Source of the DNA: a phage
Sequence record: PV730300.1
Strand: one strand, 5' to 3'
Length of the DNA stretch: 64,000 bases
Shown: in pieces, positions 24,812 to 43,335 of the stretch
Position numbering within the stretch: the stretch's first letter is position 1
Layout of the letters: each line of letters begins with the position of its first letter
Program-made: the position numbers and the translations under genes
Notes under the pieces: generated by a model
Databases searched by the model: none
The model's input: the letters and a program-made list of their open reading frames with translations, nothing else
Told to the model about the DNA's origin: nothing

Positions 24812-24818
24812 ACTTCAC

Positions 24819-25766: not shown

Positions 25767-26439
25767 GTGCTAGTGCCTCCTCATAGGAAATTCGGATTTT
25801 CCCATTTTTAATATCCTCTAAAGATGCTTTATATTCTTCCCAGTTAATCCCGATAGCAGCTTCTTTCTCTTCTTTTGTCAGATTAGCAAAAGGCATAGGA
25901 TTGTTTCCAAAAACATCGTCTGGGTGGATATAAGCCATGATACGAAGTGGACAAGGTGTTGCCTGAATACCATGATTCAAACCAGCAGCTTTCAAACGGT
26001 GTCCCCATTCGGCATCTTCAAAACCATAACCGTGAGTGTAAGGGCGGAAATAACCCATCTTCTCAACAACGGCACGAGAATACATTGCAAATTGACACAT
26101 TGCAAGTTCCCAGAGAATAACTTCTCCTTTGCTTCCAACAACTTTATCTTTGAAGTACTCCGGCATACCAAAGAAATCCCATCCTCCAGAAACAGCCTGA
26201 TCTACAAAATATGTTTCCCATCCTTCCATGACTGGGTAGCAATCATCGTCAAAAATAAACCAATAATCATAACCTTCTTCATAGAACTGGTGCATAAGTT
26301 CATTCCTGGCATAAGCTACACCTTTACGATCTGGATCGTTGAATACTCGAAAATCTGCACGTGGATCTGTTACAAGGTAGTCTTTAAGTGGACGGACACC
26401 TACAGTGATAACACCCACTCCGATTTTAATATTTTCCAT
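25756..26439 (-). CDS. glycosyltransferase-like protein with DxD-type motif (227 aa)
   Basis: WFIFDDDCYP resembles the GT-A DxD metal/donor-binding motif. Confidence 0.35.
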   Translation of the reverse strand: MENIKIGVGVITVGVRPLKDYLVTDPRADFRVFNDPDRKGVAYARNELMHQFYEEGYDYWFIFDDDCYPVMEGWETYFVDQAVSGGWDFFGMPEYFKDKVVGSKGEVILWELAMCQFAMYSRAVVEKMGYFRPYTHGYGFEDAEWGHRLKAAGLNHGIQATPCPLRIMAYIHPDDVFGNNPMPFANLTKEEKEAAIGINWEEYKASLEDIKNGKIRISYEEALAHVK

Positions 26440-26447
26440 TTTCTCTC

Positions 26448-27011
26448 CTAAATAGTTTTACTGTGATCATGACAGTGTAATAAATGATGTATAGACCGTT
26501 GAGGATTTGTTTGACCTAATCTGTAAATGTGAAACAGATACATTCCCCGCATCAATCCTAACCTCTTTCCTTTTTCATGTAAAGTGCGAGAGAAAATTAA
26601 GTCAAATTGGATAGATTTTTCTTCGAAAGGAATTTCATTCCACAGTGATTTCCTAAAAAGCAAAAAGAAACCAGCTAAAGGTGTTCCAAAAGGAACTTCT
26701 TCAACGTTTGTTTTATGATATTCCCGTGCAATTTTAGCATATTCTATGTGATTTAGAATGTCTGGGTCATCATTAATTTGGTTAGAGAAAAGCTGATAAC
26801 CACTACCCAGCCTATTACAAGTTGCACCTATTACATCAAAAGGTGGGTTTGACATAATAAGCTCTTCAAGCATAGATGGTTGATCAGGTAGGAGGAACAT
26901 TGTATCGGTATCTCTTAAACACACCCAACTATCATCTGGAAGAACGGCAATAGCTTCATTAATAGCCTTGCCGATATTTCCTGTCAGATAGGGAGTAATA
27001 TAATAAATCAT
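26448..27011 (-). CDS. glycosyltransferase-like protein (187 aa)
   Basis: CLRDTDTMF DxD-like motif; same operon as the other three GT-like genes. Confidence 0.3.
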   Translation of the reverse strand: MIYYITPYLTGNIGKAINEAIAVLPDDSWVCLRDTDTMFLLPDQPSMLEELIMSNPPFDVIGATCNRLGSGYQLFSNQINDDPDILNHIEYAKIAREYHKTNVEEVPFGTPLAGFFLLFRKSLWNEIPFEEKSIQFDLIFSRTLHEKGKRLGLMRGMYLFHIYRLGQTNPQRSIHHLLHCHDHSKTI

Positions 27012-28334: not shown

Positions 28335-28937
28335 TTATGGACATTCATACCATTCTTTTTTACCACCGAAGGCCATCACCACATCACAAATATCCAGACC
28401 AGCTTTACCTACACCATATGCTTTCAGCTTCCATTCCCCATCTTCACGAACCAAGGAAGCCACGTGGCAGATTGTGTTGCCAGCTACTTCAGGAGCCAGG
28501 AAGTCAAAATCCAGAATTTCCACATTGCGCTCGGAGTCGAAGATTTTAAGCATACCTTCAGAAGCATGACCAAAACGTTTCAGACCTGTATCATCATCAA
28601 TGGTCAGGACAAAGGCAATCTCTTGTGCATCAGGAGAGATTTTAGCCAGAGTAATATCAATCTGCTCCATGCTGCCAGTTCCATCACGAACATCGTCACC
28701 AGCGAAGGTAGAACGTTCAGGATCAAACTTGTTAGCATAGCAAACCAGGTGACGTGCAGACAGCATTTCAGGATTGCCAGCGGCATTGTGACGACAAACC
28801 AGTGCACTTACATCCAGATCCAGTTTAGAATCAGATTTCCAAGAGAATTCCAGGCGCAGTTCTTTCAGAGCCGGAGCAACTTTCTTCAGGGAAATTTTTT
28901 CGCTAGAGCCTTTTTTCAGGGAAATTTTATCAGTCAT
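28335..28937 (-). CDS. TerD-family protein (200 aa)
   Basis: N-terminal ISLKK repeats and GDDVRDGTGSMEQIDI...LTIDDD Ca-binding-like acidic motifs typical of TerD domains. Confidence 0.65.
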   Translation of the reverse strand: MTDKISLKKGSSEKISLKKVAPALKELRLEFSWKSDSKLDLDVSALVCRHNAAGNPEMLSARHLVCYANKFDPERSTFAGDDVRDGTGSMEQIDITLAKISPDAQEIAFVLTIDDDTGLKRFGHASEGMLKIFDSERNVEILDFDFLAPEVAGNTICHVASLVREDGEWKLKAYGVGKAGLDICDVVMAFGGKKEWYECP

Positions 28938-28952
28938 CTTTTGTCTCCTCTA

Positions 28953-29222
28953 TTATTTAAGTGTAATACCAGTTACAGTCAATTCTACTTCCAAAAGCTT
29001 AGATGTGTTTTGGATTGATACTAATTGTGCATGATGGTTTAGTTCTACAGCAGAACAATCATTTTCCCCATCATCTACTTTTAAATAAACAATGATTTCA
29101 CTAAGGTCTAAACCATTTTCGTCAAATGCATTTTCATAGACGAAAGTATCTCCTACATCCAAATCTTTAATGGTAAGGCATCGTTTATTTACTTTTTGCT
29201 CATCAATTTCGAAGTTTAACAC
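28953..29222 (-). CDS. hypothetical protein, paralog of 30244-30522 (89 aa)
   Basis: Shares KDLDVGDTF...LEVELTVTGITLK pattern with 30244-30522. Confidence 0.45.
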   Translation of the reverse strand: MLNFEIDEQKVNKRCLTIKDLDVGDTFVYENAFDENGLDLSEIIVYLKVDDGENDCSAVELNHHAQLVSIQNTSKLLEVELTVTGITLK

Positions 29223-29451
29223 TTCTTCCTCCTAATGTTATCTCCGGTTTGTATATACGAAGAATTATAGCATTTTCATTTTCTTTGTCAACCCATTCTT
29301 CATAATCGGGCCATACATGAATCTCTACTCTACTTACAATATCTTCCATTCGCACAGTCCCAATGAAATACTCTTTGAGACTGCGTATAATGAAAGCTTC
29401 TCTCTCGCGCCAATAATTTTCTATGACTTGAGAGGCAAGCTCGTCGATCAT
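29203..29451 (-). CDS. hypothetical protein (82 aa)
   Basis: ORF coupled to neighbours. Confidence 0.4.
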   Translation of the reverse strand: MIDELASQVIENYWREREAFIIRSLKEYFIGTVRMEDIVSRVEIHVWPDYEEWVDKENENAIILRIYKPEITLGGRSVKLRN

Positions 29452-30242
29452 TTTTTAGCACCTACTTTAACAACCCACTCTCCGAACTCTTCAGATAAGA
29501 GTTTGTCATAAAGCTCTGAATCTGTCAAGTCTAAATCTTTAATGCCAATAAAACCAACATTATCATAAGCATTTGCCAGTTCTTTCAGGAAGCCAAACTT
29601 CTCATTACCAACGCCAACCATGAACCAATAGATAGGCTTATTCTTATTTTCTTCAATAAGACGACGAACAGCACTAGGATCACCATTCTCACCATCCGTC
29701 TGGAAGAATACAACACCAGGGGTAACGTCAGCACCTGGTTCAGATACAGCTACAACTTTTTCACGCTCTACAGACACTGTTTCAGTTTTACCAAGCAGAC
29801 GATTAAAGAAGCCTTTCTTTGGAGCCTCCTCTTGTACCACTTGTTTAGTGGTAATATATTTAGTAACAGTGCCAAAATACTCATCGTAGATATCCGCCAT
29901 TACAGGGGCGTAATTTGTTCCACCTCCGATACGAACATTACGCATACATTTACCAACATAGTCATCGTAAACATCTGCTGTTGCTGGAGTAAGCTCTTGG
30001 GAACTCGTATTGAAGGCCCACATATCAATTTGTTGATTATCGTCGAACAGCATACCAAAAGGAAGCAGTTTACCTACAAAATCACTCACTACCCCACTAG
30101 AATATAGACCATGCATACTACCAGAAATATCTAGAGCACATGCTACACGAAGAACAATCTTACCTTCATTCAGGTTCTTATTCTTTTTCAGAGAGAAAGC
30201 AAGGTTTTCTTGACGTTTTTTCAGGCTGATTTTCTCGGACAT
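29448..30242 (-). CDS. vWA-domain protein (TerY/TerF-like) with TerD-like N-terminus (264 aa)
   Basis: MIDAS-type DISGSM motif; N-terminal EKISLKK as in TerD family. Confidence 0.55.
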   Translation of the reverse strand: MSEKISLKKRQENLAFSLKKNKNLNEGKIVLRVACALDISGSMHGLYSSGVVSDFVGKLLPFGMLFDDNQQIDMWAFNTSSQELTPATADVYDDYVGKCMRNVRIGGGTNYAPVMADIYDEYFGTVTKYITTKQVVQEEAPKKGFFNRLLGKTETVSVEREKVVAVSEPGADVTPGVVFFQTDGENGDPSAVRRLIEENKNKPIYWFMVGVGNEKFGFLKELANAYDNVGFIGIKDLDLTDSELYDKLLSEEFGEWVVKVGAKK

Positions 30243-30243
30243 A

Positions 30244-30522
30244 TTATTTCTCCTTCTTAAGTGTAATATTGGTAACTTCTAAATCTACTTCCACCATATT
30301 TGTATCTGGTGGGATGCAATGAGTATAGCCTCGTTGTGCTAGTGATCCATTAATACAAATCGCACTGTTTGTGGAATTTTTAATGAACACCAAGTTACGG
30401 TAGGTATCCAACCCTGCGTCTTCATAGGCATCATAATACATGAATGTGGCCCCTACGTCAAGATCTTCGAAAGCAATAGGTAAATCCTGACACTTTTCTT
30501 CTTGAATATTGAATCTAAACAC
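30244..30522 (-). CDS. hypothetical protein, paralog of 28953-29222 (GTG start)
   Basis: GGAGG then GTG start gives an N-terminus aligned with its paralog; longer track ORF would overlap the upstream gene by about 70 nt. Confidence 0.45.
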   Translation of the reverse strand: MFRFNIQEEKCQDLPIAFEDLDVGATFMYYDAYEDAGLDTYRNLVFIKNSTNSAICINGSLAQRGYTHCIPPDTNMVEVDLEVTNITLKKEK

Positions 30523-31078
30523 GCATACCTCCTCTACCAATTTTGAAGCCCAAATCGTAAGCTTCCTTAGTGATCTTTTGTAACTCACTTATAGGAAGTG
30601 TTACAAGAGGATCATCTTCTTCAATTTCCATCTTGTCATCTTCTGTTTCAATGAGAGTATTATGCACTTTGTGATAAGGGTTGTCAACACGTTTAAACTT
30701 ATTCTTTTCTGTGCTGAAAAAACAATCTGGATCTTCTTCACCATCACCCCAACCTTGATTAGGATCTCCGTCAGATTGTTCTGTAGGGATTTCACCTGTA
30801 AAGTACTCTTCCAGCACCATAGCGATACCGTCCCTTGGATTTGAGGAATGCATTAAATCACAAACCTTACCCCAATCCATAGCCCATTCGAACCGTTCAC
30901 GAACGCCATTTTCATCCTCCTTTCCAGAGAAAACACAACCATAACTATCATAGTTGCCATACATCTCTTCAATAACAGCACCGTCCTTCAAAAGAAAGAG
31001 ATAACAAGGTGATCCGTCGAAAGAAGTAGAAAGGGCAGCTTTGCCCGATTCCTTACACAAAAAACTAAAACAACCCAT
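30515..31078 (-). CDS. hypothetical acidic protein (187 aa)
   Basis: ORF; Asp/Glu-rich C-terminal half. Confidence 0.45.
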   Translation of the reverse strand: MGCFSFLCKESGKAALSTSFDGSPCYLFLLKDGAVIEEMYGNYDSYGCVFSGKEDENGVRERFEWAMDWGKVCDLMHSSNPRDGIAMVLEEYFTGEIPTEQSDGDPNQGWGDGEEDPDCFFSTEKNKFKRVDNPYHKVHNTLIETEDDKMEIEEDDPLVTLPISELQKITKEAYDLGFKIGRGGMRV

Positions 31079-31281
31079 TACAAACCCTCCTTCAGATTAT
31101 CAAGAGCTACAGTGGTTTCACAAAAGTCTCCATACGTTTTATGATGTTCCAGAAAAGCTTCGGGTCCACCCCAATCATTGTCTTGTGTATTCCAGCCATC
31201 AATAAAAGCATCTTCAATGATTGTGATCAGTTCTTGTCGGGTTAACTGGATAATATTAGGGTCGTTATCGTAGTTAAACAT
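31078..31281 (-). CDS. hypothetical protein (67 aa)
   Basis: ORF coupled to neighbours. Confidence 0.4.
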   Translation of the reverse strand: MFNYDNDPNIIQLTRQELITIIEDAFIDGWNTQDNDWGGPEAFLEHHKTYGDFCETTVALDNLKEGL

Positions 31282-31447
31282 CCTCTTCCTCCTCTAAAAT
31301 ATGGAACCCGTAATTACAATAGTCCTGAAAGGTTTCGTGCGCAAGATCTTCTATATCCTCTTGAGACATATCATCTTCAATTTCGATATCCACAACCTCA
31401 TTGCATCCACACCAAGCAGTTTCAATACTCACTCGTAATATTTTCAT
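31274..31447 (-). CDS. small acidic protein (57 aa), not in ORF track
   Basis: ATG overlaps the upstream stop (TAATG); ends overlapping the next start. Confidence 0.3.
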   Translation of the reverse strand: MKILRVSIETAWCGCNEVVDIEIEDDMSQEDIEDLAHETFQDYCNYGFHILEEEEDV

Positions 31448-31641
31448 TACTCCTCCTCATTGAAGTCAATATCTGCAAGGAGTTGGAATTTACGGAAGTT
31501 ACGACAACCTTCATAAATATAACAATCACGACAAACTGCTAGAACACTTGGGGGATATATGCCTCCCATCGGTGCGAATCGTTTTTCGTCATCATAACGG
31601 ACACCAATGTCTTCATCAATTATATAGATACGGATTCTCAT
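31447..31641 (-). CDS. hypothetical protein (64 aa)
   Basis: ORF coupled to neighbours. Confidence 0.4.
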   Translation of the reverse strand: MRIRIYIIDEDIGVRYDDEKRFAPMGGIYPPSVLAVCRDCYIYEGCRNFRKFQLLADIDFNEEE

Positions 31642-32750
31642 TTACCAAGCCCTCGTTTCACAGCAGCTACCATCCCGTCTTCCAGAGATTGAACTTCATT
31701 AATATAATCAACACGAGCAGCACGGGCTTCCGTATTGATGCGGTTAGTTTCTTCCAACATCTTAACCAAGTTTTCCTGATCGTGACGCAGAGTTTCAATA
31801 TCCAACACTTGACGGTTAGCCAGTGCTGCTGCTTCGATTTGATTCTGTGTGGCAAGATCGCTACCCAGTTTAATTGCCAGGTTAAATTCATCAAGAACGT
31901 TATTCTGCGTCTCTGCTGCTTTCATTTGACGTAAGCTTTCGATATACATTGAGAAGTTAGCAGAGTAAGCAGGAATAACATTATTTACTATGTTACGCGC
32001 AGATCGCATTAAGCTTGCAGAAACTTTTTGCATACCTTGTACACGCGGTCCCATTTGGACACACAGTAGGCGCAATGCTTTTAAATCTGCAATACGAATC
32101 TCCAGAAGATCCAAAGTATCTCGGATCACTTGTCGCTGTTCTACTGCATCTTCTGGAAGAGCAGCCAAAACTTGTTCTTCTTTTTCATAGGTTGCTGTTA
32201 GAAGCTGCATATCTCGGTTCAAACTTGCAGCATATTGTCCAATAGCTTGATGTAGCTTTTCAAGATATACCAAGGAATCTTCTTCTTTGCGAATATCCAT
32301 TTGAAGGTTCTTTACCAACTCTTCAATACGGTTATTAACATTATCAAACTCCCCGAACAGGTCTTCTTTCATACCCATAACTTTTTTAATGAGTTTAGTA
32401 ATACCTTTGCTTTGTTTAATAGAGTTTGGATCAAGTTGTTTTGCCTGTTTAATCAAAGCTGTGAGTCGTTCACTCATCTGATCGCCTTGATTACTACGTT
32501 GATGTTTTAATACCTCGGCATTCAAGGAACGCAAGGTTGTTCCTGCCTCTGCCCCAATCTCTTCGATCTCTTGTCGGGTCATAGAAGGCAAAACTGGAAC
32601 TTCTTGCGGTGCTGCTGGTGCGTAAACAGGACTGGCATCTAACACGCTTGGAGCGAATACAGATTTACTTGCATCTGTTGTTGCAGCGAATACACTCATT
32701 TCAGACTTCTTCTGACCACCAGTAGCTGCTTTTAAAAATGGACTTGTCAT
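31638..32750 (-). CDS. TelA-like (toxic anion resistance family) protein (370 aa)
   Basis: Size and extended coiled-coil character typical of TelA/KlaA proteins; sits with TerD, vWA and TerC genes. Confidence 0.5.
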   Translation of the reverse strand: MTSPFLKAATGGQKKSEMSVFAATTDASKSVFAPSVLDASPVYAPAAPQEVPVLPSMTRQEIEEIGAEAGTTLRSLNAEVLKHQRSNQGDQMSERLTALIKQAKQLDPNSIKQSKGITKLIKKVMGMKEDLFGEFDNVNNRIEELVKNLQMDIRKEEDSLVYLEKLHQAIGQYAASLNRDMQLLTATYEKEEQVLAALPEDAVEQRQVIRDTLDLLEIRIADLKALRLLCVQMGPRVQGMQKVSASLMRSARNIVNNVIPAYSANFSMYIESLRQMKAAETQNNVLDEFNLAIKLGSDLATQNQIEAAALANRQVLDIETLRHDQENLVKMLEETNRINTEARAARVDYINEVQSLEDGMVAAVKRGLGK

Positions 32751-33337
32751 TCTTCATTCTCCTCTTCTGCATCTCTTATATATGGTGAAACACCGTACTC
32801 TTTAGCTACTTTAACCCAATCATCCCATTTATACAACCATAATTTTCCTTCAGTTCCTTCTTTATCTGATTTCAACCACATATTAGGTTGCTTGCCTGGA
32901 TACATGCGATTAGGTTTACGATTATAACCTCTGACACATCTTGTCGCAAACCTATCTACCAGAACAAGAACATACTTATATTCGTGGTTCAACGGTTCTT
33001 TGGAAGTGGCTTTAGGATTAGCCCCTAATTCTGCTGCCAGTTTTTGCCAATGAGCACCGTGTCTACTAAATTTACCCATACAACCATCAATAGCATGAGC
33101 AATTTCGTGCTTCATTGTATCCACGATCATATCTCTTGTAGAGTTCTTATGCAAGTGCCAATTTACAACAACAATTTTATCTCGGTAGTTGCACCAACCG
33201 AAAGAGTTATTCACTTTGTTTCTAACACAAGCTTTATATCCTGCTTCACGTAACATGTTGTAGTAAACAGGAAAATCTTCTTTTATTTCCTGCATCACTT
33301 CCCACCACAAGAGTTGCAAGTCTCTCTCGGTATGCAT
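32747..33337 (-). CDS. SprT-like zinc metallopeptidase (196 aa)
   Basis: HEIAH (HExxH) motif in a SprT-like setting; overlaps the TelA-like gene stop. Confidence 0.5.
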   Translation of the reverse strand: MHTERDLQLLWWEVMQEIKEDFPVYYNMLREAGYKACVRNKVNNSFGWCNYRDKIVVVNWHLHKNSTRDMIVDTMKHEIAHAIDGCMGKFSRHGAHWQKLAAELGANPKATSKEPLNHEYKYVLVLVDRFATRCVRGYNRKPNRMYPGKQPNMWLKSDKEGTEGKLWLYKWDDWVKVAKEYGVSPYIRDAEEENEE

Positions 33338-33340
33338 AAC

Positions 33341-33934
33341 TTACACCTTAAAAGCGAAATACGTGGTCGTGGCTTCAAAATCAGGGCCAGATAAACTTGC
33401 ACTGAAATCTGAAATATTTGTAATTAAAAAGCTTTTATGCATACCTAACACAGCCACGCTTTCAATATCTTCTACTAACATTTCAATCATGTTAGAAACA
33501 TGGCTGAACGTAGAGTTTTGTTTTTTGATGGTGTAGAAAGAAAGATTCCCACCTGCTGTATAAGATACCTCTTCAAAATCTTTAATCGTATATTGTGTGC
33601 CATCAGTAAAGAAAATGGTAGCTTTATTAGTAGCACGTTTCTTGTTTTTTGGTCCTTTTTTACGTTTACTGCGAGTAGGCAAACCGTTTGGAAATACCGT
33701 AGCTACAAATTCTTCAGGAGAAACCTCCTTACCGAAATCATAACCGTAAGAAACAGCGTCTATAAACTCGTCGTCTTCATTTTTAAAATAATGAAAATAG
33801 GGCCAATTTGAGAGATTATCGAGCATCTTATGCTCATCCACAGCAGAGAACGTATCCCTCAAAGCACGTGTGATTTGTAAAGCATTAGGCAAACTTTTAA
33901 CACCTGTAATGGAAGTACGAATAGAAATTGTCAT
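33341..33934 (-). CDS. hypothetical protein (197 aa)
   Basis: ORF; basic KRKKGPKNKKR patch. Confidence 0.45.
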   Translation of the reverse strand: MTISIRTSITGVKSLPNALQITRALRDTFSAVDEHKMLDNLSNWPYFHYFKNEDDEFIDAVSYGYDFGKEVSPEEFVATVFPNGLPTRSKRKKGPKNKKRATNKATIFFTDGTQYTIKDFEEVSYTAGGNLSFYTIKKQNSTFSHVSNMIEMLVEDIESVAVLGMHKSFLITNISDFSASLSGPDFEATTTYFAFKV

Positions 33935-33948
33935 TGTTTTTCTCCTTA

Positions 33949-34386
33949 TTAACGTCGCTTGCTACGAGATGAACTCTTTTTACTTAAAGGGCTATTGTAA
34001 GATTTACGAGTTGTATAGCTACTATTTGTTTTAAAAGTTTGTCTCGGCTTTTCATAAGTTTTTATCTCTTGCTTAGGCTTACCATAAAAATTAGTTTTCG
34101 GTTTAGGTGTATTATAATGCTTATTAATAATCGTTCTGTTATCGTTATAATCCCCACTGTTACGATTACCACCACCACTCATCATATGCCCTAACAACAT
34201 ACCTGTAGCAAACTCACCAACACCGCTACTACTAGAACCGCCACCATTGTTGATAATAGTTGTATCTCCGTCAGATCCTTGTTGAGCGTATTGTTGAGGA
34301 GGTTGTTGGTATTGTGCAGGATTTGTTTCATCCTCGCAAGCTGTTAAAAAGATACAACCAATTAAAATCAGTGCTAGTTTTTTCAT
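33949..34386 (-). CDS. lipoprotein, Gly/Ser-rich (start at internal ATG)
   Basis: MKKLALILIGCIFLTAC signal peptide with lipobox cysteine; GAGGAAAG RBS before this ATG. Confidence 0.5.
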   Translation of the reverse strand: MKKLALILIGCIFLTACEDETNPAQYQQPPQQYAQQGSDGDTTIINNGGGSSSSGVGEFATGMLLGHMMSGGGNRNSGDYNDNRTIINKHYNTPKPKTNFYGKPKQEIKTYEKPRQTFKTNSSYTTRKSYNSPLSKKSSSRSKRR

Positions 34387-34573
34387 ATTTGCTTTCCTCA
34401 TTTTGACTATTAATACACCTGTGTTTGAAATCTCCAGAGAAGCAATAAAGTTGCTCTCCATCTCGGTATAAACTCACTTTACTGCCGTTGATTACGCTTG
34501 TCAATACAAAAATTACAACAAACAACCCTATTGCAAAACAAATATTTTCAAACACAACCAACAAGTATTTCAT
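34328..34573 (-). CDS. small membrane protein (81 aa)
   Basis: One hydrophobic helix; overlaps the lipoprotein gene start. Confidence 0.3.
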   Translation of the reverse strand: MKYLLVVFENICFAIGLFVVIFVLTSVINGSKVSLYRDGEQLYCFSGDFKHRCINSQNEESKYEKTSTDFNWLYLFNSLRG

Positions 34574-34920
34574 TTTAAAAATACCTCATCATCAGTTTCA
34601 TTATCCCAGAAGAACAAATCCCAACCATTCGGATCATTCCATTTGGCTGCTGGAGAAGTCCATATTTGTTCGATATCAATATTCAAAACTTCACCGTTTC
34701 GTTTTGAAACAGCTTTAGTTAATTCCCAACGAGATACAGGCTCTACTTCTCCTGAACCACTTCCACAACAAGCTACAACATTAGGAGGCAAATTAATTGG
34801 ATCTTTGGTCACAATCATAACGCTTACCCCAGGGTAAACTTTTGAAAGATAATCTAAAACGTAATCCACATCACCAGATAAATCCCAAATAAGTTCTTGA
34901 ATTTCATCAAAATTATTCAT
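34570..34920 (-). CDS. hypothetical protein (116 aa)
   Basis: ORF following the TerC gene. Confidence 0.45.
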   Translation of the reverse strand: MNNFDEIQELIWDLSGDVDYVLDYLSKVYPGVSVMIVTKDPINLPPNVVACCGSGSGEVEPVSRWELTKAVSKRNGEVLNIDIEQIWTSPAAKWNDPNGWDLFFWDNETDDEVFLK

Positions 34921-34962
34921 AAGTCTCTCCTATAAAATAGCCTCCCGAAGGAGGCTCATCTA

Positions 34963-35937
34963 TTAAACAGCAGCTTCTTCTTTTTCAGGGAAGATAAAGC
35001 TTGCAATAACACCCAGAGCTAATGTGCCTAGAACAATCATCAGACTTACGTTAGGGGAAATATCATGCGGGAGGAATGACCACTTGGCATGAAGTGTTTC
35101 ACCGAACGGGTGATACATAAGTTTAGCACCAACAAACACCAGAACCACAGCAACAGCTTTCTCTAAGTGAACCAGATATTTCACAGCTACACTCAACACA
35201 AAGAAAAGTGCACGTAAACCAAGAACAGCCATCAGCATTGCAGAATAAACTAGCAGAGGTTCTTGTGTCACACCGATCACAGCCGGAACTGAATCAAAAG
35301 AGAAGACAATATCTGTAAGCTCAATAACAAACACACAAAGAAGAGCAGGAGTTGCATATTTAATACCATTCTTAATGGTGATGAACTTTTCACCATCCAG
35401 CGCATTGTGCACAGGCAGAACTTTACCTACTAAACGAACAGCCCAATGCTTAGAGTAATCAATATCCTCTTCTTCGTCACCACCTTTGATGATAGCCACG
35501 GCAGACCAAGCTACAATCAAACCGAACAACACTTGGACCGACCAATGAAGGTTAAACAAAGCGGTCCCTGCTGCAACAAAAATACCTCGGAAGACAATGG
35601 CTCCTGCAATCCCCCAAAGTAAAATCTTATGTTGGAGATGTGTACTCTTAATTCCAAAGCTTGCAAAAATTGCCATGAACACCATCAGGTTATCTACAGA
35701 AAGACTCTTTTCCAACACATAGCCACTTAAGAAAAGCGCGGCAAACTCTTTACCATGTTCTACCCAAATGAATGCGTAATATCCTAAAGCTAAAGCAATC
35801 CAAAAAACAGACCAAAGCAAAGCAGATTTAATTCCAATTTCTTTATTCTCTTTATGACCAAAGAAATCGATACCAATAGACAATGCCAAAATACCAACTA
35901 AAACAACTACATCAATAATTGGGAAACCGAGTTGCAT
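34963..35937 (-). CDS. TerC-family integral membrane protein (324 aa)
   Basis: Multiple transmembrane segments and the TerC-type EKSLSVDNLMVF motif; preceded by an early-type promoter-hairpin cassette. Confidence 0.75.
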   Translation of the reverse strand: MQLGFPIIDVVVLVGILALSIGIDFFGHKENKEIGIKSALLWSVFWIALALGYYAFIWVEHGKEFAALFLSGYVLEKSLSVDNLMVFMAIFASFGIKSTHLQHKILLWGIAGAIVFRGIFVAAGTALFNLHWSVQVLFGLIVAWSAVAIIKGGDEEEDIDYSKHWAVRLVGKVLPVHNALDGEKFITIKNGIKYATPALLCVFVIELTDIVFSFDSVPAVIGVTQEPLLVYSAMLMAVLGLRALFFVLSVAVKYLVHLEKAVAVVLVFVGAKLMYHPFGETLHAKWSFLPHDISPNVSLMIVLGTLALGVIASFIFPEKEEAAV

Positions 35938-36016: not shown

Positions 36017-36238
36017 TTATTTTGTTGAATGAGAGGAAAAGATTCCTCGTAATACCGCCAGAATAAACGAAACACAAACCACGGTCCAGAAGGTTACTGG
36101 GACAGTGATATCTGCATGACCCATAACTTCAGCAACATAGTTGTAAGCCAGCAACAGTAACCAAGCTGGAATCAAACTAAGCATAAAAGCAATAACAAAA
36201 AAGCTTACCACTGCAACAATACCTGCAAAAACACCCAT
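36017..36238 (-). CDS. small membrane protein (73 aa)
   Basis: Two hydrophobic helices. Confidence 0.4.
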   Translation of the reverse strand: MGVFAGIVAVVSFFVIAFMLSLIPAWLLLLAYNYVAEVMGHADITVPVTFWTVVCVSFILAVLRGIFSSHSTK

Positions 36239-36250
36239 ACTAATCTCCTC

Positions 36251-36724
36251 TTAAAGTTTATAAATAGTTACATCGTGACCTGTTTTTACTAAAGTTTCTT
36301 CAATCATCACTTGGATGATAGCCCAATTACCTCCAGCATATCCAGCGCCAATCATAGGTAAGCCGATCTTACATTTTTGGTCACGGAGAAGCAAATCATT
36401 AGCCATAGCTATTAGTGCATCGTAAAGTGCATCATAGTCCAACTGACGACCTTTAGCATTGTATCCGTAACGGTATTGCCCGTATAGATTATATACCAAA
36501 GGGTCTGATTGTTCGTCTGGCACCCCTAAACTAAAAGAACCTAACTTACTTTGATCACCAGCCATTGTGTCTAAATCTGCCGCATATGCATAAGGGAATG
36601 CTCGTTTAATTTGCGGAGCAATTCCTGCTCCCATGTTACACATACAATTGCAACAATGAGCAATAACAGTTACTTCACCTGCTTTAGCGGCATCAATAAG
36701 ATTACCTGTTTTCGTTTTAAGCAT
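36251..36724 (-). CDS. macrodomain protein, TARG1/OARD1-like (157 aa)
   Basis: IAHCCNCMCNMGAGIA and C-terminal IGLPMIGAGYAGGNW...DVTIYKL align by eye with TARG1 (LAHCISEDCRMGAGIA ... LSMPRIGCGLDRLQW...DIKITVYTL). Confidence 0.6.
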   Translation of the reverse strand: MLKTKTGNLIDAAKAGEVTVIAHCCNCMCNMGAGIAPQIKRAFPYAYAADLDTMAGDQSKLGSFSLGVPDEQSDPLVYNLYGQYRYGYNAKGRQLDYDALYDALIAMANDLLLRDQKCKIGLPMIGAGYAGGNWAIIQVMIEETLVKTGHDVTIYKL

Positions 36725-36736
36725 TTTAGCTCCTTA

Positions 36737-37564
36737 TTACAGAATGTGTTGTTTTGTGTAACGATCCAAGAATTCAAAGTTTTCAGCATACTTTGAAATT
36801 CGGTTGTAACCTTCTCCCAAGCATCCAAAGAAAAGTTGCTCTACATAGTAGTGTGGCAATTGACTAAGAATGATTTTGAAGTCTTCATGATTTTGGCCCA
36901 TAAGATATTTAATAGGACGAACAAGACACTGTGCATCACGTTCTTCATTAATCATTTTAACAAATGCTTCTGGTGTATTAATGTAGTTAAAATTCAGTTT
37001 AGCTTCGGTATCTGCTTGATTACCTTCATATTTTGCAAAATACAGGAAGTAAACATCATTTTTAACTTGATTTTCATCAAGAATCTCAATCAGTTTGTCT
37101 TCATGCGTTCCAGTGATATTTACATCATCAATGAATACAAGCTTCTTATCACCCCAGAATTCTTTGTTGCAGTAGAATGTATCCCCATCAATAAGTTTCT
37201 TACGACTAGCTTTATCCAAGAAACCATAATCGTTGATATAGCTAACTTTACGATGAATAATGTCCAGTTCTGCTGAACGACCTTGATCATATTGTGATTG
37301 CAACATGTTAAAGTAATTAATAAAATGATCTGTCATCATTGTTGCAGCATTATGCACATGGTTGTAAGGAGAAGGAATGATAACAAATTGTTCCCCAATA
37401 TGTTTCATTGCCACTTGAGCAAAAAACTGAAGTGCCAATTCTTTACCCATACGACGCGCGGCTTGGTTACTACCAAATTTCAATTTTGAATAATCTTGGA
37501 TATCAAAAGTAGCAGTTTCCAGGTCATCAAATTTATTTGCAAAAATTTGAGTTTGATTACGCAT
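36737..37564 (-). CDS. phosphoribosyltransferase-domain protein (275 aa)
   Basis: KLVFIDDVNITGTHED resembles the PRPP-binding motif of type I PRTases. Confidence 0.55.
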   Translation of the reverse strand: MRNQTQIFANKFDDLETATFDIQDYSKLKFGSNQAARRMGKELALQFFAQVAMKHIGEQFVIIPSPYNHVHNAATMMTDHFINYFNMLQSQYDQGRSAELDIIHRKVSYINDYGFLDKASRKKLIDGDTFYCNKEFWGDKKLVFIDDVNITGTHEDKLIEILDENQVKNDVYFLYFAKYEGNQADTEAKLNFNYINTPEAFVKMINEERDAQCLVRPIKYLMGQNHEDFKIILSQLPHYYVEQLFFGCLGEGYNRISKYAENFEFLDRYTKQHIL

Positions 37565-38213
37565 TTACAATTTCTCCTCTTTTAAGTTTCTCTAGTAAGT
37601 CGTTAGGGTTCTTAATATGACAGAAGTTAAATCCTAAGTCAACACATTTTCCATCATATTCTTCACTATCGCCTACGTGCAATACTTCGTGCCCTAACAG
37701 AGGGATCGGAGAATACGTGAGCGTGCGAGCAAAGAATCGCGGATCTGGTTTACAAAGTAAAGCTTCATCCGAGAAATGGGTGAACTCAAAACAATTCCAA
37801 CTATCAAACTTACAAGCACGACGCAGGATATCCCCTGATATAAAGTTGGTATTGCTCTTAATACTCAAATCATAACGTCCCGAAAGATACAGCAAGTACA
37901 TCGGCAGATCCACGGCTACGTGTGGTGGAAACTTAAGGAACCACTGTTCACACTCAAAACGAAGCTTTGCAGACTTCCAAGGCGTTATCCCAAGTTCAGA
38001 ACCAAGTCTTTCCCAGGCGTATGCTGCACACTCGGCTTTGCCTTGAAGTGCTGCATTATCCAGTTCCTTTTTGATCTTCTTATAAGCTGCTCTTGCTTCC
38101 ACTTCTGTAATATCTCCATATTTTGCGATAGTCCAGGCTCGCATATCTGCGTAATTGGAGTTTGCTGTGATCAGTGTGTTCCATACATCAAAAGAGATAT
38201 GTTTAATAGTCAT
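37557..38213 (-). CDS. HAD-superfamily hydrolase-like protein (218 aa)
   Basis: N-terminal FDVWNTL (haloacid-dehalogenase-type motif I variant) and distal HVGDS motif. Confidence 0.5.
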   Translation of the reverse strand: MTIKHISFDVWNTLITANSNYADMRAWTIAKYGDITEVEARAAYKKIKKELDNAALQGKAECAAYAWERLGSELGITPWKSAKLRFECEQWFLKFPPHVAVDLPMYLLYLSGRYDLSIKSNTNFISGDILRRACKFDSWNCFEFTHFSDEALLCKPDPRFFARTLTYSPIPLLGHEVLHVGDSEEYDGKCVDLGFNFCHIKNPNDLLEKLKRGEIVNA

Positions 38214-38214
38214 A

Positions 38215-38820
38215 TTAAGCCCACCATGCGTCTAAGTTAAGATTACTGTCCACTACCACTTGTTCTATGTGGTAGCCTTTTATCTGTATCCCACTGTTCA
38301 AGAGCATATCATACGCTTCATTGAAACGCAACTTATCTTCTGCGGAATATAAGCGAGCATTATAAAATCGGTAATCAATTTCTTCAGCATTAGAAGAAAT
38401 ACGGAAGAAGTTTGTTTCTACTTCGGGGTCACTTGCTGAAGTCTTAATGTGAACTTCTCCGTAATTTTCTTTACTTAGATCCATGAAAAGAACACAGGCA
38501 ACATGTTTAAACATTCGTTCCAGTTTGTAACGAACAACATTGAAACCTGCATTCTCAAGTTTTTCTACACACTGCAACATTAAAGTAGTGTCGAGATCGC
38601 TTTGATACTTTGTTAACATACGATCACGTTGAGACTTTGTATCCCGATGTAAATCAATTGTTGTGCATTTGGCACCAATAATCTTAGCTGCTTTCATCAA
38701 CTCTTCAGAACTAACGTTAGATAAAGTAAGATGAAAATGGGCTTTCCACACTTTTTTAGCAGGGACACCAAAAGATTTATCCCCACTATTCGGCATGTTG
38801 ACTACTACACTATGTTGCAT
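38215..38820 (-). CDS. hypothetical protein (201 aa)
   Basis: ORF between the HAD-like gene and nrdG operon; no motif recognised. Confidence 0.45.
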   Translation of the reverse strand: MQHSVVVNMPNSGDKSFGVPAKKVWKAHFHLTLSNVSSEELMKAAKIIGAKCTTIDLHRDTKSQRDRMLTKYQSDLDTTLMLQCVEKLENAGFNVVRYKLERMFKHVACVLFMDLSKENYGEVHIKTSASDPEVETNFFRISSNAEEIDYRFYNARLYSAEDKLRFNEAYDMLLNSGIQIKGYHIEQVVVDSNLNLDAWWA

Positions 38821-41334: not shown

Positions 41335-41434
41335 TATTAATCCTTATTTTGTGAGTAGAACTATTATTCTACCTCTTCCAACCGAAAAAAGCTTTGAGGA
41401 AAATCAAAAAAGGCGCAAAGTGCGCCTTTAAGTT

Positions 41435-42784
41435 TTATCGTTTGGAGAGGAATTGTCTTCCCATGATCTTACCGTTCTTTACAGCGGTCCCATCGTGTCC
41501 ATTATAATCCCAAGTTCCATCAATGTTACGCAAGAAGCTATCACGAACAGTGTAGGCTTTACCGTTCTCTACTTTACTTTCTTCAACAATGATTGCCATA
41601 ACAAGCTTATTTTCAATTTCGGTAGTAACCGATTCTTTAATACCCTCTGTAACTTCACGATCATATTGGATATAAACTCGCTCCTCGGTCACTTGCACGT
41701 CTACCACATTTTTAAATGTGTATGTCTGCTGTGTAGTGTAAAGGACACGAACAACACTCTTCTTACCTACTGGCGGCTTCTTACGAGGCTTACGGTAACG
41801 TGGAGACGGGTTAAGTTTAATATAGCCTACAATGTCTGATCCATCTCCAGAGTGGCTCCAATAAAGTGTCTCTGCCAACAAACCTTTTCCTTGGTCCCCA
41901 TTTCGAAAAAGAACATCAACAGGACCATCACAAGGGCGTTTACCTCCGATGTGGGCTTGGTATTTTGCTGTTCTTGGGAGAACAAAATATTCTTCAATCT
42001 GCCATTCACTATCGTATTTCTCCCATTCAAAGTGGTTGGCTTTGCATACTTCTAAAACACCATTTTTGTAACGGACTTGAACAAAGTCCTCACAAGGTTG
42101 AATACCTGTATTAGGAATATAGGTAGGCTCTGTGTCTTCTGGTTCAAAAGTCTTTTTTTGTTGTTCCACATCTTCCACTTTTCTTACATGCTTAGTATAA
42201 AACATATCTTTAAACTCCTGTGCTTCAACCTCAACTGCAAATTCATGTTCTCTGACCGCCGGAGGCACAAGACTTCCACACTCAAGATGTAGAGCATCCA
42301 GACCTGCCATTTTATCGTAAAAGATAACTTTTCGATACTTCTTACCGTCTTCTGGAATAGCAGGGTCTACTCGTTTAAGACGGGAAGCATCGCTTTTAGT
42401 CCAAAAACTCTTCCCTGTTGTATTATTGAAAGTAGTAATCATTTCTCCAATTTCTTCTTCAGAAAGGTTACTAGTGTCTGTGTAAACATCTTCAATTTTT
42501 AGCATTTTAGTTTTCTTAAAAATTAAATCTAGCATTGCATCTCCTGTAAAACGTAGTTCATTATCTCCTACTGTCGGCTCTCCATTAAATTCATCGGTCC
42601 CGACTGTGTGACAGATGTATGGAAAATTTGTGCAACCGTGTAAAAGAGCATATTGTCCTGTAAGTTTAGGATCTGTCTCTTTAGTCCAACCATATGCAAT
42701 CTCAATAGCTTTGCAAAGCCTATCGAACAAGCCCCGATTGTTTGCCGCTGTTACCAAATCTTGCTTATGTGCATATACATTCAT
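41435..42784 (-). CDS. hypothetical protein (449 aa)
   Basis: Large ORF; no motif recognised by eye. Confidence 0.5.
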   Translation of the reverse strand: MNVYAHKQDLVTAANNRGLFDRLCKAIEIAYGWTKETDPKLTGQYALLHGCTNFPYICHTVGTDEFNGEPTVGDNELRFTGDAMLDLIFKKTKMLKIEDVYTDTSNLSEEEIGEMITTFNNTTGKSFWTKSDASRLKRVDPAIPEDGKKYRKVIFYDKMAGLDALHLECGSLVPPAVREHEFAVEVEAQEFKDMFYTKHVRKVEDVEQQKKTFEPEDTEPTYIPNTGIQPCEDFVQVRYKNGVLEVCKANHFEWEKYDSEWQIEEYFVLPRTAKYQAHIGGKRPCDGPVDVLFRNGDQGKGLLAETLYWSHSGDGSDIVGYIKLNPSPRYRKPRKKPPVGKKSVVRVLYTTQQTYTFKNVVDVQVTEERVYIQYDREVTEGIKESVTTEIENKLVMAIIVEESKVENGKAYTVRDSFLRNIDGTWDYNGHDGTAVKNGKIMGRQFLSKR

Positions 42785-43335
42785 AATAACCCTCCTCGTT
42801 TTATTGCAATAGATGCCCTAGGCTCTGCGATACCAGTGGCGTATAAATATGGATGACCTTGTGGAGAAGTTCTCATCCCAAACGAACCTAATTCTAACCC
42901 ATACATATCTTCCACGTCAAGACCAATATCTGTCTCTATGATTTGAGTTTGAACTTTGTAATACGTCCAAAAGAAATAGCGCATAGTTTCGGCATATTCT
43001 TTGACGGACGCTCCTGGATAAAACTCAATAATTTCCAACTTTAAGAAAATGTTAAAATGAGCATCATCCAATTCTTCTTCTGTTCGGTAGCAAGGTGTTA
43101 GAGCCATATAAGGATGATCTGTTGAAAATTCAAACCCATCTTTCTCCATCTGGAGGAAAGACTGCTCTGCACTGGCTACGTAGAACTTACCATTAGGATG
43201 CCCCAAGGGGCGATCCTCTTTACCTTCTGGTAATGTATATGCAAGGATATCCGCATCTACAAGATAAGGGACTTCCAACATCTCCGCAAATCGCCCGTAG
43301 TAATCAATAGCTTGAGCAATAACAGCTACGTTCAT
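42781..43335 (-). CDS. hypothetical protein (184 aa)
   Basis: ORF coupled to neighbours. Confidence 0.45.
   Translation of the reverse strand: MNVAVIAQAIDYYGRFAEMLEVPYLVDADILAYTLPEGKEDRPLGHPNGKFYVASAEQSFLQMEKDGFEFSTDHPYMALTPCYRTEEELDDAHFNIFLKLEIIEFYPGASVKEYAETMRYFFWTYYKVQTQIIETDIGLDVEDMYGLELGSFGMRTSPQGHPYLYATGIAEPRASIAIKRGGLL

What the first reader, a model, noticed from the sequence alone, without database searches (positions are those of the whole stretch)
36251..36724. TARG1-like macrodomain encoded by the phage: candidate eraser of DNA or protein ADP-ribosylation
The 157-aa protein aligns by eye with TARG1/OARD1-type macrodomains at both signature regions. Established biochemistry: TARG1-like macrodomains (including the DarG antitoxin) remove ADP-ribose from modified substrates, among them thymidine-linked ADP-ribose written by DarT toxins. 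A phage copy could neutralise DarTG-type or other ADP-ribosylating defences, or process an ADP-ribose-containing intermediate of the surrounding Ter/PRTase/HAD pathway.
Basis: partly seen in the sequence, partly recalled or inferred. Interest (0 to 1): 0.75.

Follow-up and report, generated by a model that had tools for sequence, protein, structure and literature searches.

The report
Phage macrodomain, likely anti-defence ADP-ribose hydrolase

Summary
The ORF at 36251-36724 (minus strand, 157 aa) is real. It is conserved in 78 related phage genomes of the phAPEC8 group (Phapecoctavirus and allies).

It is a macrodomain. The AlphaFold2 model has pLDDT 92.7, and the best structural matches are TARG1, Bt_1257, DarG, Poa1p and SCO6735. 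It is not TARG1 or DarG proper: TARG1 Lys84/Asp125 and DarG Lys80 are replaced by Gln83 and Ala130. It carries the His/Asn/Gln/Gly set of SCO6735, which cleaves DarT-made thymidine-ADP-ribose on DNA.

It belongs to PHROG 335, which tblastn finds in 2,984 of 50,697 phage records. Two members have been tested:
- T4 Tk.4/AdfM is needed to resist DarTG2 (37% identical to this protein).
- Vibrio phage Gary Adpp is an ADP-ribose-1''-phosphate phosphatase that feeds the NARP1 NAD+ pathway against aRES (41% identical).

This phage has no NARP1 genes, so an AdfM-like role, removing ADP-ribose from phage DNA, is the best guess (about 0.45). An Adpp-like role is the main rival.

The link to the neighbouring HAD/PRTase_3/Ter genes is not supported. 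That gene pair occurs without the macrodomain in six other loci, and the macrodomain occurs without the pair in most phage lineages.

Verdict: a new member of a known kind, of low to moderate interest.

The parts
36251..36724 (-). Macrodomain gene (157 aa), PHROG 335, SCO6735/Tk.4/Adpp-type. Predicted active-site residues are His23, Asn26, Gln83 and Gly126/Gly128. The ADP-ribose-binding loops are MGAGIA (31-36) and IGAGYAGG (125-132).
36725..36736 (-). 12-nt spacer between the PRTase_3 stop and the macrodomain start. It contains the AAGGAG ribosome-binding site and suggests co-transcription with the upstream genes.
   Evidence: Sequence; ORF ends
36017..36238 (-). Small hydrophobic protein (73 aa, phrog_16065) 12 nt downstream. 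It is conserved next to the macrodomain in Stephanstirmvirinae-like phages. Function unknown, and it is not shown to belong to the macrodomain's function.
36737..37564 (-). Neighbour: PRTase_3 (ComF-like phosphoribosyltransferase, PF15610). It forms a separate conserved two-gene module with the HAD gene and is judged not part of the macrodomain's function.
37557..38213 (-). Neighbour: HAD-family hydrolase, always immediately upstream of PRTase_3 in other phages.
34939..34956 (-). Terminator-like hairpin just after TerC. Together with the hairpin at 41409-41429 it brackets a possible transcription unit NrdD-NrdG-p201-HAD-PRTase-Macro-tm73-TerC. This is a consensus match only.

Best explanation
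The gene encodes a stand-alone ADP-ribose-binding hydrolase of the ALC1/TARG1-like macrodomain class, in the Gln-type branch typified by Streptomyces SCO6735. I think the phage makes it during replication to strip ADP-ribose that a host DarT2-type toxin attaches to thymidines of single-stranded phage DNA, so that replication can proceed. That would make it functionally an AdfM like T4 Tk.4.

Shown here: the ORF, the fold, the class, conservation of the His/Asn/Gln/Gly active-site set, membership of PHROG 335 together with T4 Tk.4 and Vibrio phage Adpp, and absence of NARP1 genes from this phage type.

Taken from the literature: SCO6735 cleaves thymidine-linked ADP-ribose with Gln85 essential; T4 lacking tk.4 becomes sensitive to DarTG2.

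Inferred only: that this particular protein acts on ADP-ribosylated DNA in infected E. coli.
For: - Fold and class.
- Active-site residues. His23, Asn26, Gln83 and Gly128 correspond to SCO6735 His24, Asn27, Gln85 and Gly128 (alignment). Across 73 phage relatives His23 and Asn26 are invariant, Gln83 is kept in 71 and Gly128 in 71.
- The 'mobile loop' has the same length as in SCO6735.
- SCO6735 reverses DarT thymidine ADP-ribosylation in vitro and in cells, and Q85A abolishes activity (PMC9411070).
- T4 Tk.4 is 37% identical over 124 aa (E 1e-21) and falls in the same PHROG 335. Its knockout sensitises T4 to DarTG2.
- The protein matches DarG models over their macrodomain part only (PADLOC 3.2e-10, NCBIfam 2e-8).
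- No Adps or Namat homolog was found by tblastn in the window plus EF1-1 positions 4000-137434, and none is annotated in the EF1-1 tables read, which cover all but the first 4 kb of that record. The Adpp phosphatase needs both partners to give a phenotype.
- Only about one tenth of family members can be NARP1-linked. The family is in 2,984 of 50,697 phage records, whereas 15% of the 4% of phages with NARP1 carry an associated macrodomain.
- In 25 of the 80 closest IMG/VR relatives the gene lies next to a NADAR gene, the enzyme type that phages use against DarTG1 (PMC11825919 listed).
Against: - No experiment exists on this protein or on any Phapecoctavirus.
- The closest characterised relative by sequence is the small-molecule phosphatase Adpp (41% over the full length, E 4e-36), not Tk.4.
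- In a neighbour-joining tree without bootstrap, the window's clade sits among NARP1-linked and NAD-island clades, while Tk.4 and the rV5-like proteins branch outside.
- Adpp and Tk.4 share the same catalytic residues, so sequence cannot separate the two activities.
- The two lysines that help SCO6735 bind DNA (K34, K89) are Ala33 and Gly87 here, and the protein is acidic (pI 5.6 vs 9.8 for SCO6735). T4 Tk.4 is equally acidic (pI 5.9).
- The T4 result comes from a preprint and is genetic only.
Confidence: 0.45

Rival explanations
1. It is an ADP-ribose-1''-phosphate phosphatase like Adpp of Vibrio phage Gary. It would convert the ADPR-1''-P made by RES-domain NAD+ phosphorylases (aRES defence) into ADP-ribose.
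For: - Highest identity to a characterised protein: 41% over 161 aligned positions, E 4e-36. Both are in PHROG 335 and have identical active-site residues.
- The HxCNC motif is shared with yeast Poa1p, the classical ADPR-1''-P phosphatase.
- Relatives sit inside NARP1 operons in Thalassavirus, Pakpunavirus and two IMG/VR contigs.
- Another 31 of the 80 closest relatives sit in NAMPT/NUDIX/NADAR/SIR2/Prs islands.
- aRES occurs in E. coli, Klebsiella and Enterobacter.
Against: - No Adps or Namat was found in this phage type.
- In the aRES study, inactivating any of the three genes abolished the phenotype, so the phosphatase alone does not rescue NAD+.
- E. coli has no known route from ADP-ribose back to NAD+ (my own knowledge).
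- Most family members are not NARP1-linked.
Confidence: 0.22
2. One promiscuous active site does both jobs. The family would hydrolyse whatever is attached to C1'' of ADP-ribose, whether phosphate or a thymine on DNA, so AdfM and Adpp are two readouts of one enzyme and this copy protects against several ADP-ribose-based defences.
For: - T4 Tk.4 and Gary Adpp are 35% identical (E 2e-23), belong to one PHROG and share all catalytic positions.
- Related macrodomains are multi-substrate: SCO6735 acts on both DNA and protein substrates.
Against: No member has been assayed on both substrates. Without NARP1 the phosphatase side would bring no obvious benefit here.
Confidence: 0.15
3. It belongs to the neighbouring p201-HAD-PRTase_3 / Ter module and makes or destroys a ribose-linked nucleotide-like metabolite of that pathway.
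For: - The order HAD-PRTase_3-Macro-small TM protein-TerC is kept across Phapecoctavirus, Justusliebigvirus and related metagenomic phages even where the macrodomain is only 49-54% identical.
- The genes are 12 nt apart and lie between two terminator-like hairpins.
- PRTase plus HAD are the predicted 'signal biosynthesis' part of Ter systems (PMC7824862).
Against: - HAD-PRTase_3 is a self-contained pair. It is found without any macrodomain within 6-7 kb in 6 of 6 loci outside this phage group: Xanthomonas XaC1, a Rhizobium phage, a Brevundimonas phage and three metagenomic or draft contigs.
- A sister lineage keeps Macro, p201 and TerC but has no HAD-PRTase_3 within 6 kb.
- PRTase_3 is in only 157 phage records against 2,984 for the macrodomain.
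- Macro is not listed among Ter components in the summary by the authors who defined the system.
Confidence: 0.08
4. It reverses protein or RNA ADP-ribosylation, or deacetylates O-acetyl-ADP-ribose. Possible substrates are products of the phage's own Sir2-like enzyme or of host toxins that modify RNA.
For: - Phapecoctavirus EF1-1 encodes a Sir2 homolog elsewhere in the genome.
- SIR2 lies 2-3 kb from the macrodomain in the NAD islands.
- TARG1 and SCO6735 act on protein substrates.
Against: Sir2 is about 100 kb away in this phage. No ADP-ribosyltransferase is annotated in the EF1-1 tables read. No family member has been shown to act this way.
Confidence: 0.1

Closest known systems
T4 Tk.4 = AdfM (anti-DarT factor, macrodomain); bioRxiv 10.1101/2025.11.20.689424
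   Same: Same PHROG 335. 37% identity over 124 aa. Same AHxCNC...MGxG, NLYxQ and IGAGxxxGNW motifs with Gln at the catalytic position. Both are stand-alone ~155-aa proteins in E. coli myoviruses that lack NARP1, and both are acidic.
   Different: Tk.4 has a mobile loop about 7 residues shorter and branches outside the window's clade. Its genomic setting differs (tk-vs region). Only Tk.4 has a demonstrated phenotype.
Adpp of Vibrio phage Gary (KNV71_gp137), the ADPR-1''-phosphate phosphatase of NARP1-AP; bioRxiv 10.64898/2026.01.28.702374
   Same: Closest characterised sequence: 41% over the full length. Same PHROG and same catalytic residues. The mobile loop is long in both, and Adpp's is two residues longer.
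   Different: Adpp is encoded between Adps and Namat and works only with them. This phage has neither.
Streptomyces coelicolor SCO6735 (PDB 5E3B) and Bacteroides Bt_1257 (2FG1)
   Same: Best solved-structure matches by sequence and by family profile. Same His/Asn/Gln/Gly catalytic set and long mobile loop. SCO6735 removes DarT thymidine-ADP-ribose.
   Different: These are bacterial chromosomal proteins with basic surfaces (pI 9.8 and 8.7 vs 5.6 here). The DNA-contact lysines K34 and K89 are not conserved (Ala33, Gly87). Identity is about 30%.
Human TARG1/OARD1 (PDB 4J5S)
   Same: Best Foldseek match (TM 0.79/0.88). The loop motifs are very similar.
   Different: The catalytic dyad Lys84/Asp125 is replaced by Gln83/Ala130, so the lysine-adduct mechanism proposed for TARG1 cannot apply.
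DarG antitoxin of DarTG2, and the chimallivirus AdfM (PhiKZ gp104; PMC13309987)
   Same: Same macrodomain class. The protein matches DarG HMMs over the macrodomain part. The proposed task, removing DarT2 marks from DNA, is the same.
   Different: DarG and PhiKZ AdfM use a catalytic Lys (K80, K78). DarG also has a C-terminal DarT-binding domain and an adjacent darT gene. None of these is present here.
Yeast Poa1p (PDB 6LFQ)
   Same: Shares the I-x-H-x-C-N-C motif, with His23 and Asn26 at identical numbering. Foldseek TM about 0.8.
   Different: Poa1p has Ser at the Gln83 position and Phe152 at the Ala130 position, plus a 20-residue insertion.

Membership tests
Macrodomain fold (Pfam PF01661) | Profile match above the curated threshold | tested here: met
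   23.3 bits vs gathering score 22, E 6.3e-5, residues 23-135. Marginal on its own, but backed by PHROG 335 at 5.6e-55 and by profile-to-PDB hits of 1e-10 to 4e-22.
Macrodomain fold (Pfam PF01661) | Three-layer alpha/beta/alpha fold with a central mixed sheet | tested here: met
   AF2 pLDDT 92.7, pTM 0.90. 224 PDB matches at E <= 1e-3, and 49 of the 50 listed are natural macrodomains; the other is a designed protein.
Macrodomain fold (Pfam PF01661) | Two glycine-rich loops that hold the diphosphate and distal ribose of ADP-ribose | tested here: met
   MGAGIA (31-36) and IGAGYAGG (125-132) align with the corresponding loops of TARG1, SCO6735 and Poa1p. Binding itself was not tested.
ALC1/TARG1-like macrodomain class | Closest relatives in sequence and structure are TARG1, DarG, SCO6735/Bt_1257 and Poa1p rather than MacroD, PARG or viral macrodomains | tested here: met
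   The top 19 Foldseek hits and the sequence and profile PDB hits are these proteins and the related T. africanus DarTG. Alphavirus macrodomains come after.
TARG1/OARD1 proper | Catalytic Lys84-Asp125 dyad | tested here: not met
   Gln83 and Ala130 occupy these positions. In 73 phage relatives they are Gln in 71 and Ala in 70.
DarG antitoxin (DarTG2) | Catalytic lysine (K80 in T. aquaticus DarG) | tested here: not met
   Gln83 occupies the position. The equivalence Q85 (SCO6735) = K80 (DarG) = K84 (TARG1) is from PMC9411070 and from the alignments.
DarG antitoxin (DarTG2) | C-terminal DarT-binding domain and full-length match to the DarG model | tested here: not met
   The protein is 157 aa. 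NCBIfam antitoxin_DarG gives 33.9 bits vs a cutoff of 250 and covers model positions 2-147 of 338. PADLOC DarG covers 1-144 of 329.
DarG antitoxin (DarTG2) | Adjacent darT toxin gene | tested here: not met
   The neighbours are PRTase_3 and a 73-aa membrane protein.
SCO6735/Bt_1257 subclass (Gln-type DNA ADP-ribosyl hydrolases) | His24, Asn27, Gln85 and Gly128 of SCO6735 | tested here: met
   His23, Asn26, Gln83 and Gly128.
SCO6735/Bt_1257 subclass (Gln-type DNA ADP-ribosyl hydrolases) | Mobile loop about five residues longer than in TARG1 and DarG | tested here: met
   No gap relative to SCO6735 between Gln83 and Tyr97.
SCO6735/Bt_1257 subclass (Gln-type DNA ADP-ribosyl hydrolases) | Electropositive DNA-binding groove (K34, K89) | tested here: not met
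   Ala33 and Gly87 at these positions; pI 5.6 vs 9.8. T4 AdfM also lacks them, so this does not exclude action on DNA.
SCO6735/Bt_1257 subclass (Gln-type DNA ADP-ribosyl hydrolases) | Hydrolysis of thymidine-linked ADP-ribose on ssDNA | not testable with these tools
   Needs a biochemical assay.
Phage AdfM (T4 Tk.4 type) | Homology to Tk.4 | tested here: met
   37% identity over 124 aa, E 1e-21. Both are in phrog_335.
Phage AdfM (T4 Tk.4 type) | Required for growth on DarTG2-expressing hosts | not testable with these tools
   Needs phage genetics.
Adpp / NARP1-AP | Homology to Vibrio phage Gary Adpp | tested here: met
   41% identity over 161 aligned positions, E 4e-36. Same PHROG.
Adpp / NARP1-AP | Encoded with Adps and Namat, both of which are required for the phenotype | tested here: not met
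   No Adps or Namat homolog at E < 0.1 by tblastn in the window plus EF1-1 positions 4000-137434, and none annotated in the EF1-1 tables read. The requirement is stated.
Ter stress/defence system (as summarised in PMC7824862) | The macrodomain is a recurrent component linked to PRTase/HAD/TerC/TerD/TelA | tested here: not met
   0 of 6 HAD-PRTase_3 loci outside this phage group carry the macrodomain. The component list does not include it.

The most novel reading that the evidence does not exclude
In Stephanstirmvirinae-like phages the macrodomain may have been recruited as a third enzyme of the HAD-PRTase_3 module inside a phage-borne Ter system. Together they would make or destroy a ribose-linked nucleotide signal, or provide an Adps/Namat-independent way of recycling ADP-ribose derivatives. 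The tight gene order kept across about 50% sequence divergence, and a possible single transcription unit, do not exclude this.
Probability: 0.07. Interest if true: 0.7.

Novelty: new member of a known kind. Interest (0 to 1): 0.3.

Why it matters
If the AdfM-like reading is right, phAPEC8-type phages, which are used and proposed for therapy against E. coli, Klebsiella and Acinetobacter, carry a ready-made counter to DarTG2. That would help explain or predict their host range on strains with ADP-ribosylating defences.

The more general point concerns two recent preprints. They gave one phage protein family (PHROG 335, in about 6% of phage genomes) two different jobs: DNA de-ADP-ribosylation in T4, and ADPR-1''-phosphate dephosphorylation in a Vibrio phage. 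The two tested proteins and this one share every catalytic residue. It therefore becomes directly testable whether one enzyme covers both defences or whether specificity lies outside the active site.

None of this changes the basic picture. The gene itself is an ordinary family member.

Tried and rejected
- NARP1 genes. I searched the window and most of the close relative EF1-1 for Adps and Namat with two divergent queries each. Nothing scored better than E 0.15.
- Obligatory linkage of HAD-PRTase_3 to the macrodomain. Rejected: six independent loci have the pair without a macrodomain, and one sister lineage has the macrodomain without the pair.
- Net charge as a discriminator between a DNA and a small-molecule substrate. 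Uninformative, because T4 AdfM is as acidic as this protein.
- Neighbour-joining tree to place the protein with Tk.4 or with Adpp. The window's clade is nearer the NARP1 and NAD-island clades, but internal branches are short and there is no bootstrap, so I do not lean on it.
- Literature on Phapecoctavirus and DarTG. No functional study was found.
- Promoter and terminator scans gave only consensus-level hints.

Full report
**The observation**

The window is a 64-kb piece of a phAPEC8-like E. coli myovirus (Phapecoctavirus, Stephanstirmvirinae). The segment 34000-40000 is 99% identical to phages EF1-1 and anhysbys, and 78 phage records match it.

An AAGGAG ribosome-binding site lies 5 nt before the ATG. 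Existing records annotate it as 'phosphatase', 'putative phosphatase' or 'hypothetical protein'.

**It is a macrodomain of the TARG1/DarG class**

- Pfam Macro is reached just above threshold (23.3 vs 22 bits). PHROG 335 is reached at 5.6e-55.
- By sequence the protein finds solved macrodomains only: SCO6735 (5e-13), Bt_1257 (1e-8), TARG1 (1.7e-6), T. aquaticus DarG (3.6e-6) and Poa1p (1e-3).
- A profile built from 38 homologs raises these to 3.8e-22, 8.9e-20, 5.6e-18, 1.2e-10 and 3.2e-10 for Bt_1257, SCO6735, TARG1, DarG and Poa1p.
- The AlphaFold2 model is confident (pLDDT 92.7, pTM 0.90). Its best Foldseek matches are TARG1 (E 2.6e-12, TM 0.79/0.88), Bt_1257, DarG, Poa1p and SCO6735, ahead of alphavirus macrodomains.

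**It is not TARG1 or DarG proper**

I confirmed my recalled TARG1 and Poa1p sequences as 100% identical to the PDB entries. Alignment with these and with the SCO6735 and Bt_1257 segments gives the residue map:

| This protein | SCO6735 | TARG1 | Poa1p |
|---|---|---|---|
| His23 | His24 | His32 | His23 |
| Asn26 | Asn27 | Ser35 | Asn26 |
| Gln83 | Gln85 | Lys84 | Ser |
| Gly128 | Gly128 | Gly | Gly |
| Ala130 | Ala | Asp125 | Phe152 |

The TARG1 Lys/Asp dyad and the DarG lysine are absent. The residue set is that of SCO6735, including its long 'mobile loop'. For SCO6735, Hlousek-Kasun et al. showed fast removal of DarT-made thymidine-ADP-ribose from ssDNA, protection from DarT in cells, and complete loss of activity in Q85A (PMC9411070).

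The protein also has no DarT-binding domain and no darT neighbour. It scores 33.9 bits against a 250-bit cutoff for the DarG equivalog model.

**A very common phage family with two tested members**

tblastn finds relatives in 2,984 of 50,697 phage records, including T-even phages where the gene is tk.4. All of the following fall in PHROG 335: T4 Tk.4 (1.3e-65), Vibrio phage Gary KNV71_gp137 (1.3e-49), a Pakpunavirus copy, an rV5-like copy, a copy from a metagenomic NAD island, and the window protein.

Two preprints assign functions to members of this family.
- A transposon screen found tk.4 as the single T4 gene needed on DarTG2-expressing E. coli. A clean knockout became sensitive, and the gene was named adfM (10.1101/2025.11.20.689424).
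- Osterman et al. showed that the macrodomain encoded between Adps and Namat in Vibrio phage Gary (Adpp) converts ADPR-1''-phosphate, the product of the aRES defence, into ADP-ribose. NARP1 then rebuilds NAD+ from it, and all three genes are required (10.64898/2026.01.28.702374).

The window protein is 37% identical to Tk.4 over 124 aa (E 1e-21) and 41% identical to Adpp over its full length (E 4e-36). Tk.4 and Adpp are 35% identical to each other. All three share the catalytic positions, so sequence alone cannot tell the two activities apart.

A separate, Lys-type 'AdfM' exists in chimalliviruses (PhiKZ gp104, K78; PMC13309987). It belongs to the DarG-like branch, not to this one.

**Which activity here?**

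I looked for the NARP1 partners. With Adps and Namat queries from two distant phages, tblastn found nothing better than E 0.15 in the window or in EF1-1 positions 4000-137434. The annotation tables for EF1-1 from 4 kb to its end list neither gene. The phosphatase alone gave no protection in the aRES study, so an Adpp-type role has no obvious pay-off in this phage.

T4 also lacks NARP1 (my own knowledge), and its copy works against DarTG2.

Rough arithmetic points the same way. About 15% of the roughly 4% of phages with NARP1 carry an associated macrodomain, against roughly 6% of phages with the family. Most members must therefore do something other than feed NARP1.

I therefore rank an AdfM-like role first, removing thymidine-linked ADP-ribose from phage ssDNA (about 0.45). 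The Adpp-like role comes second (about 0.22), and a promiscuous enzyme doing both comes third (about 0.15).

Three points count against over-confidence:
- The window's clade sits nearer the NARP1-linked and NAD-island clades than Tk.4 in an unsupported neighbour-joining tree.
- The DNA-contact lysines of SCO6735 are not conserved, and the protein is acidic, although T4 AdfM is too.
- Nothing has been measured for this protein.

**The neighbourhood**

All genes from about 25.7 to 47.8 kb are on the minus strand. Around the macrodomain lie, in window order:
- TerD (28335-28937)
- vWA-TerF (29448-30242)
- TelA (31638-32750)
- SprT-like (32747-33337)
- TerC (34963-35937)
- a 73-aa membrane protein (36017-36238)
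- the macrodomain (36251-36724)
- PRTase_3 (36737-37564)
- HAD (37557-38213)
- a 201-aa unknown, p201 (38215-38820)
- NrdG and NrdD

Terminator-like hairpins at 41409-41429 and 34939-34956 may bracket NrdD through TerC.

The order HAD-PRTase_3-Macro-tm73-TerC is kept in Justusliebigvirus and in related metagenomic phages whose macrodomain is only 49-54% identical. That is shared ancestry within one phage group.

Outside the group the association disappears.
- PRTase_3 occurs in only 157 phage records, always directly after a HAD gene.
- None of six such loci has a macrodomain within 6-7 kb: Xanthomonas XaC1, a Rhizobium phage, a Brevundimonas phage and three metagenomic or draft contigs.
- Conversely, a sister lineage keeps the macrodomain, p201, TerC and TelA but has no HAD-PRTase_3 within 6 kb.

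**Context of the family elsewhere**

Among the 80 closest IMG/VR relatives:
- 5 have the full HAD-PRTase_3/Ter context, and one more has TerC, vWA and p201 without the pair;
- 2 sit between Adps and Namat;
- 31 sit in an island with the order NUDIX(NMNAT)-NAMPT-NADAR-Macro-HAD_SAK-SIR2-Prs; 25 of these have NADAR beside the macrodomain, and not every island carries every gene;
- 1 has only a NAMPT fragment nearby;
- 40 have none of my marker genes.

NAD+/ADP-ribose genes are thus the commonest company for this family. That fits either metabolite handling or simple clustering of anti-defence genes. NARP2, NADAR-type anti-DarTG1 enzymes and the macrodomain are all counter-defence functions.

**Novelty and interest**

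The gene is a new member of a known kind.

Two things are worth taking away.
- The T4 'AdfM' and the Vibrio 'Adpp' belong to one family with identical catalytic residues. This makes a head-to-head substrate test the obvious next experiment.
- This phage group offers a natural NARP1-free member to include in that test.

Noticed in passing
[not shown]
   Followed up: partly
window 36737-38213 (-); loci L015, L016, L017, L100, L101, L102: HAD hydrolase followed immediately by PRTase_3 (PF15610) is a conserved two-gene module. It occurs in distant phages of Xanthomonas, Rhizobium and Brevundimonas/Caulobacter and in metagenomic contigs. It sits next to Ter genes in one locus, next to RNA-repair genes in two (RNA ligase, DUF2828; one also has 2H-SAK and a CCA-adding enzyme), and two genes from an NMNAT/NUDIX gene in the Rhizobium phage. 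Substrate unknown.
   Followed up: partly
window 28335-35937 (-): The phage carries a fairly complete Ter set: TerD, vWA-TerF, TelA, a SprT-like metallopeptidase and TerC. Several conserved unknowns lie among them (187, 197, 170 and 116 aa). Others have suggested that phage-borne Ter systems exclude superinfecting phages (PMC7824862).
   Followed up: no
L002 5923-6390 (T4 tk.4) vs L014 2501-2977 (Vibrio phage Gary KNV71_gp137): The T4 anti-DarTG2 factor AdfM and the NARP1-associated ADPR-1''-P phosphatase Adpp were described in separate preprints with different functions. They are 35% identical, fall in the same PHROG 335 and share all catalytic residues.
   Followed up: yes
L013, L028-L029, L039-L056 and others (IMG/VR and Logan contigs): 31 of the 80 closest relatives lie in a recurring NAD+/ADP-ribose island with the order NUDIX(NMNAT)-NAMPT-NADAR-Macro-HAD_SAK_2-SIR2-Prs, on large viral contigs. 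25 of them have NADAR beside the macrodomain, and not every island carries every gene.
   Followed up: partly
EF1-1 PQ571289 22132-23263 (L007 18133-19264), outside the window: Phapecoctavirus encodes a Sir2-family protein plus a small Sir2-like ORF. These are NAD+-consuming enzymes whose products (O-acetyl-ADP-ribose or ADP-ribosylated targets) are typical macrodomain substrates.
   Followed up: no
window 41435-42784 and 42781-43335 (-): Two conserved genes are labelled 'ribonucleotide reductase' (phrog_15930, 449 aa) and 'histidyl tRNA synthetase' (phrog_4806, 184 aa) in PHROGs. Neither has any Pfam or NCBIfam match, so the labels look unreliable. A second phrog_4806 gene exists in EF1-1 (gp81).
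   Followed up: partly
window about 24200-27011 (-): A run of four genes annotated as glycosyltransferases (EF1-1 gp189-192) lies between the primase/helicase and endolysin genes. Their target, DNA or a surface sugar, was not examined.
   Followed up: no
L004 4734-5450 (Escherichia phage ALITA): The Justusliebigvirus ortholog is annotated as 238 aa, overlapping the end of the PRTase gene. Homology to the window protein starts only at locus position 5001, so the annotated start is probably too far upstream.
   Followed up: partly
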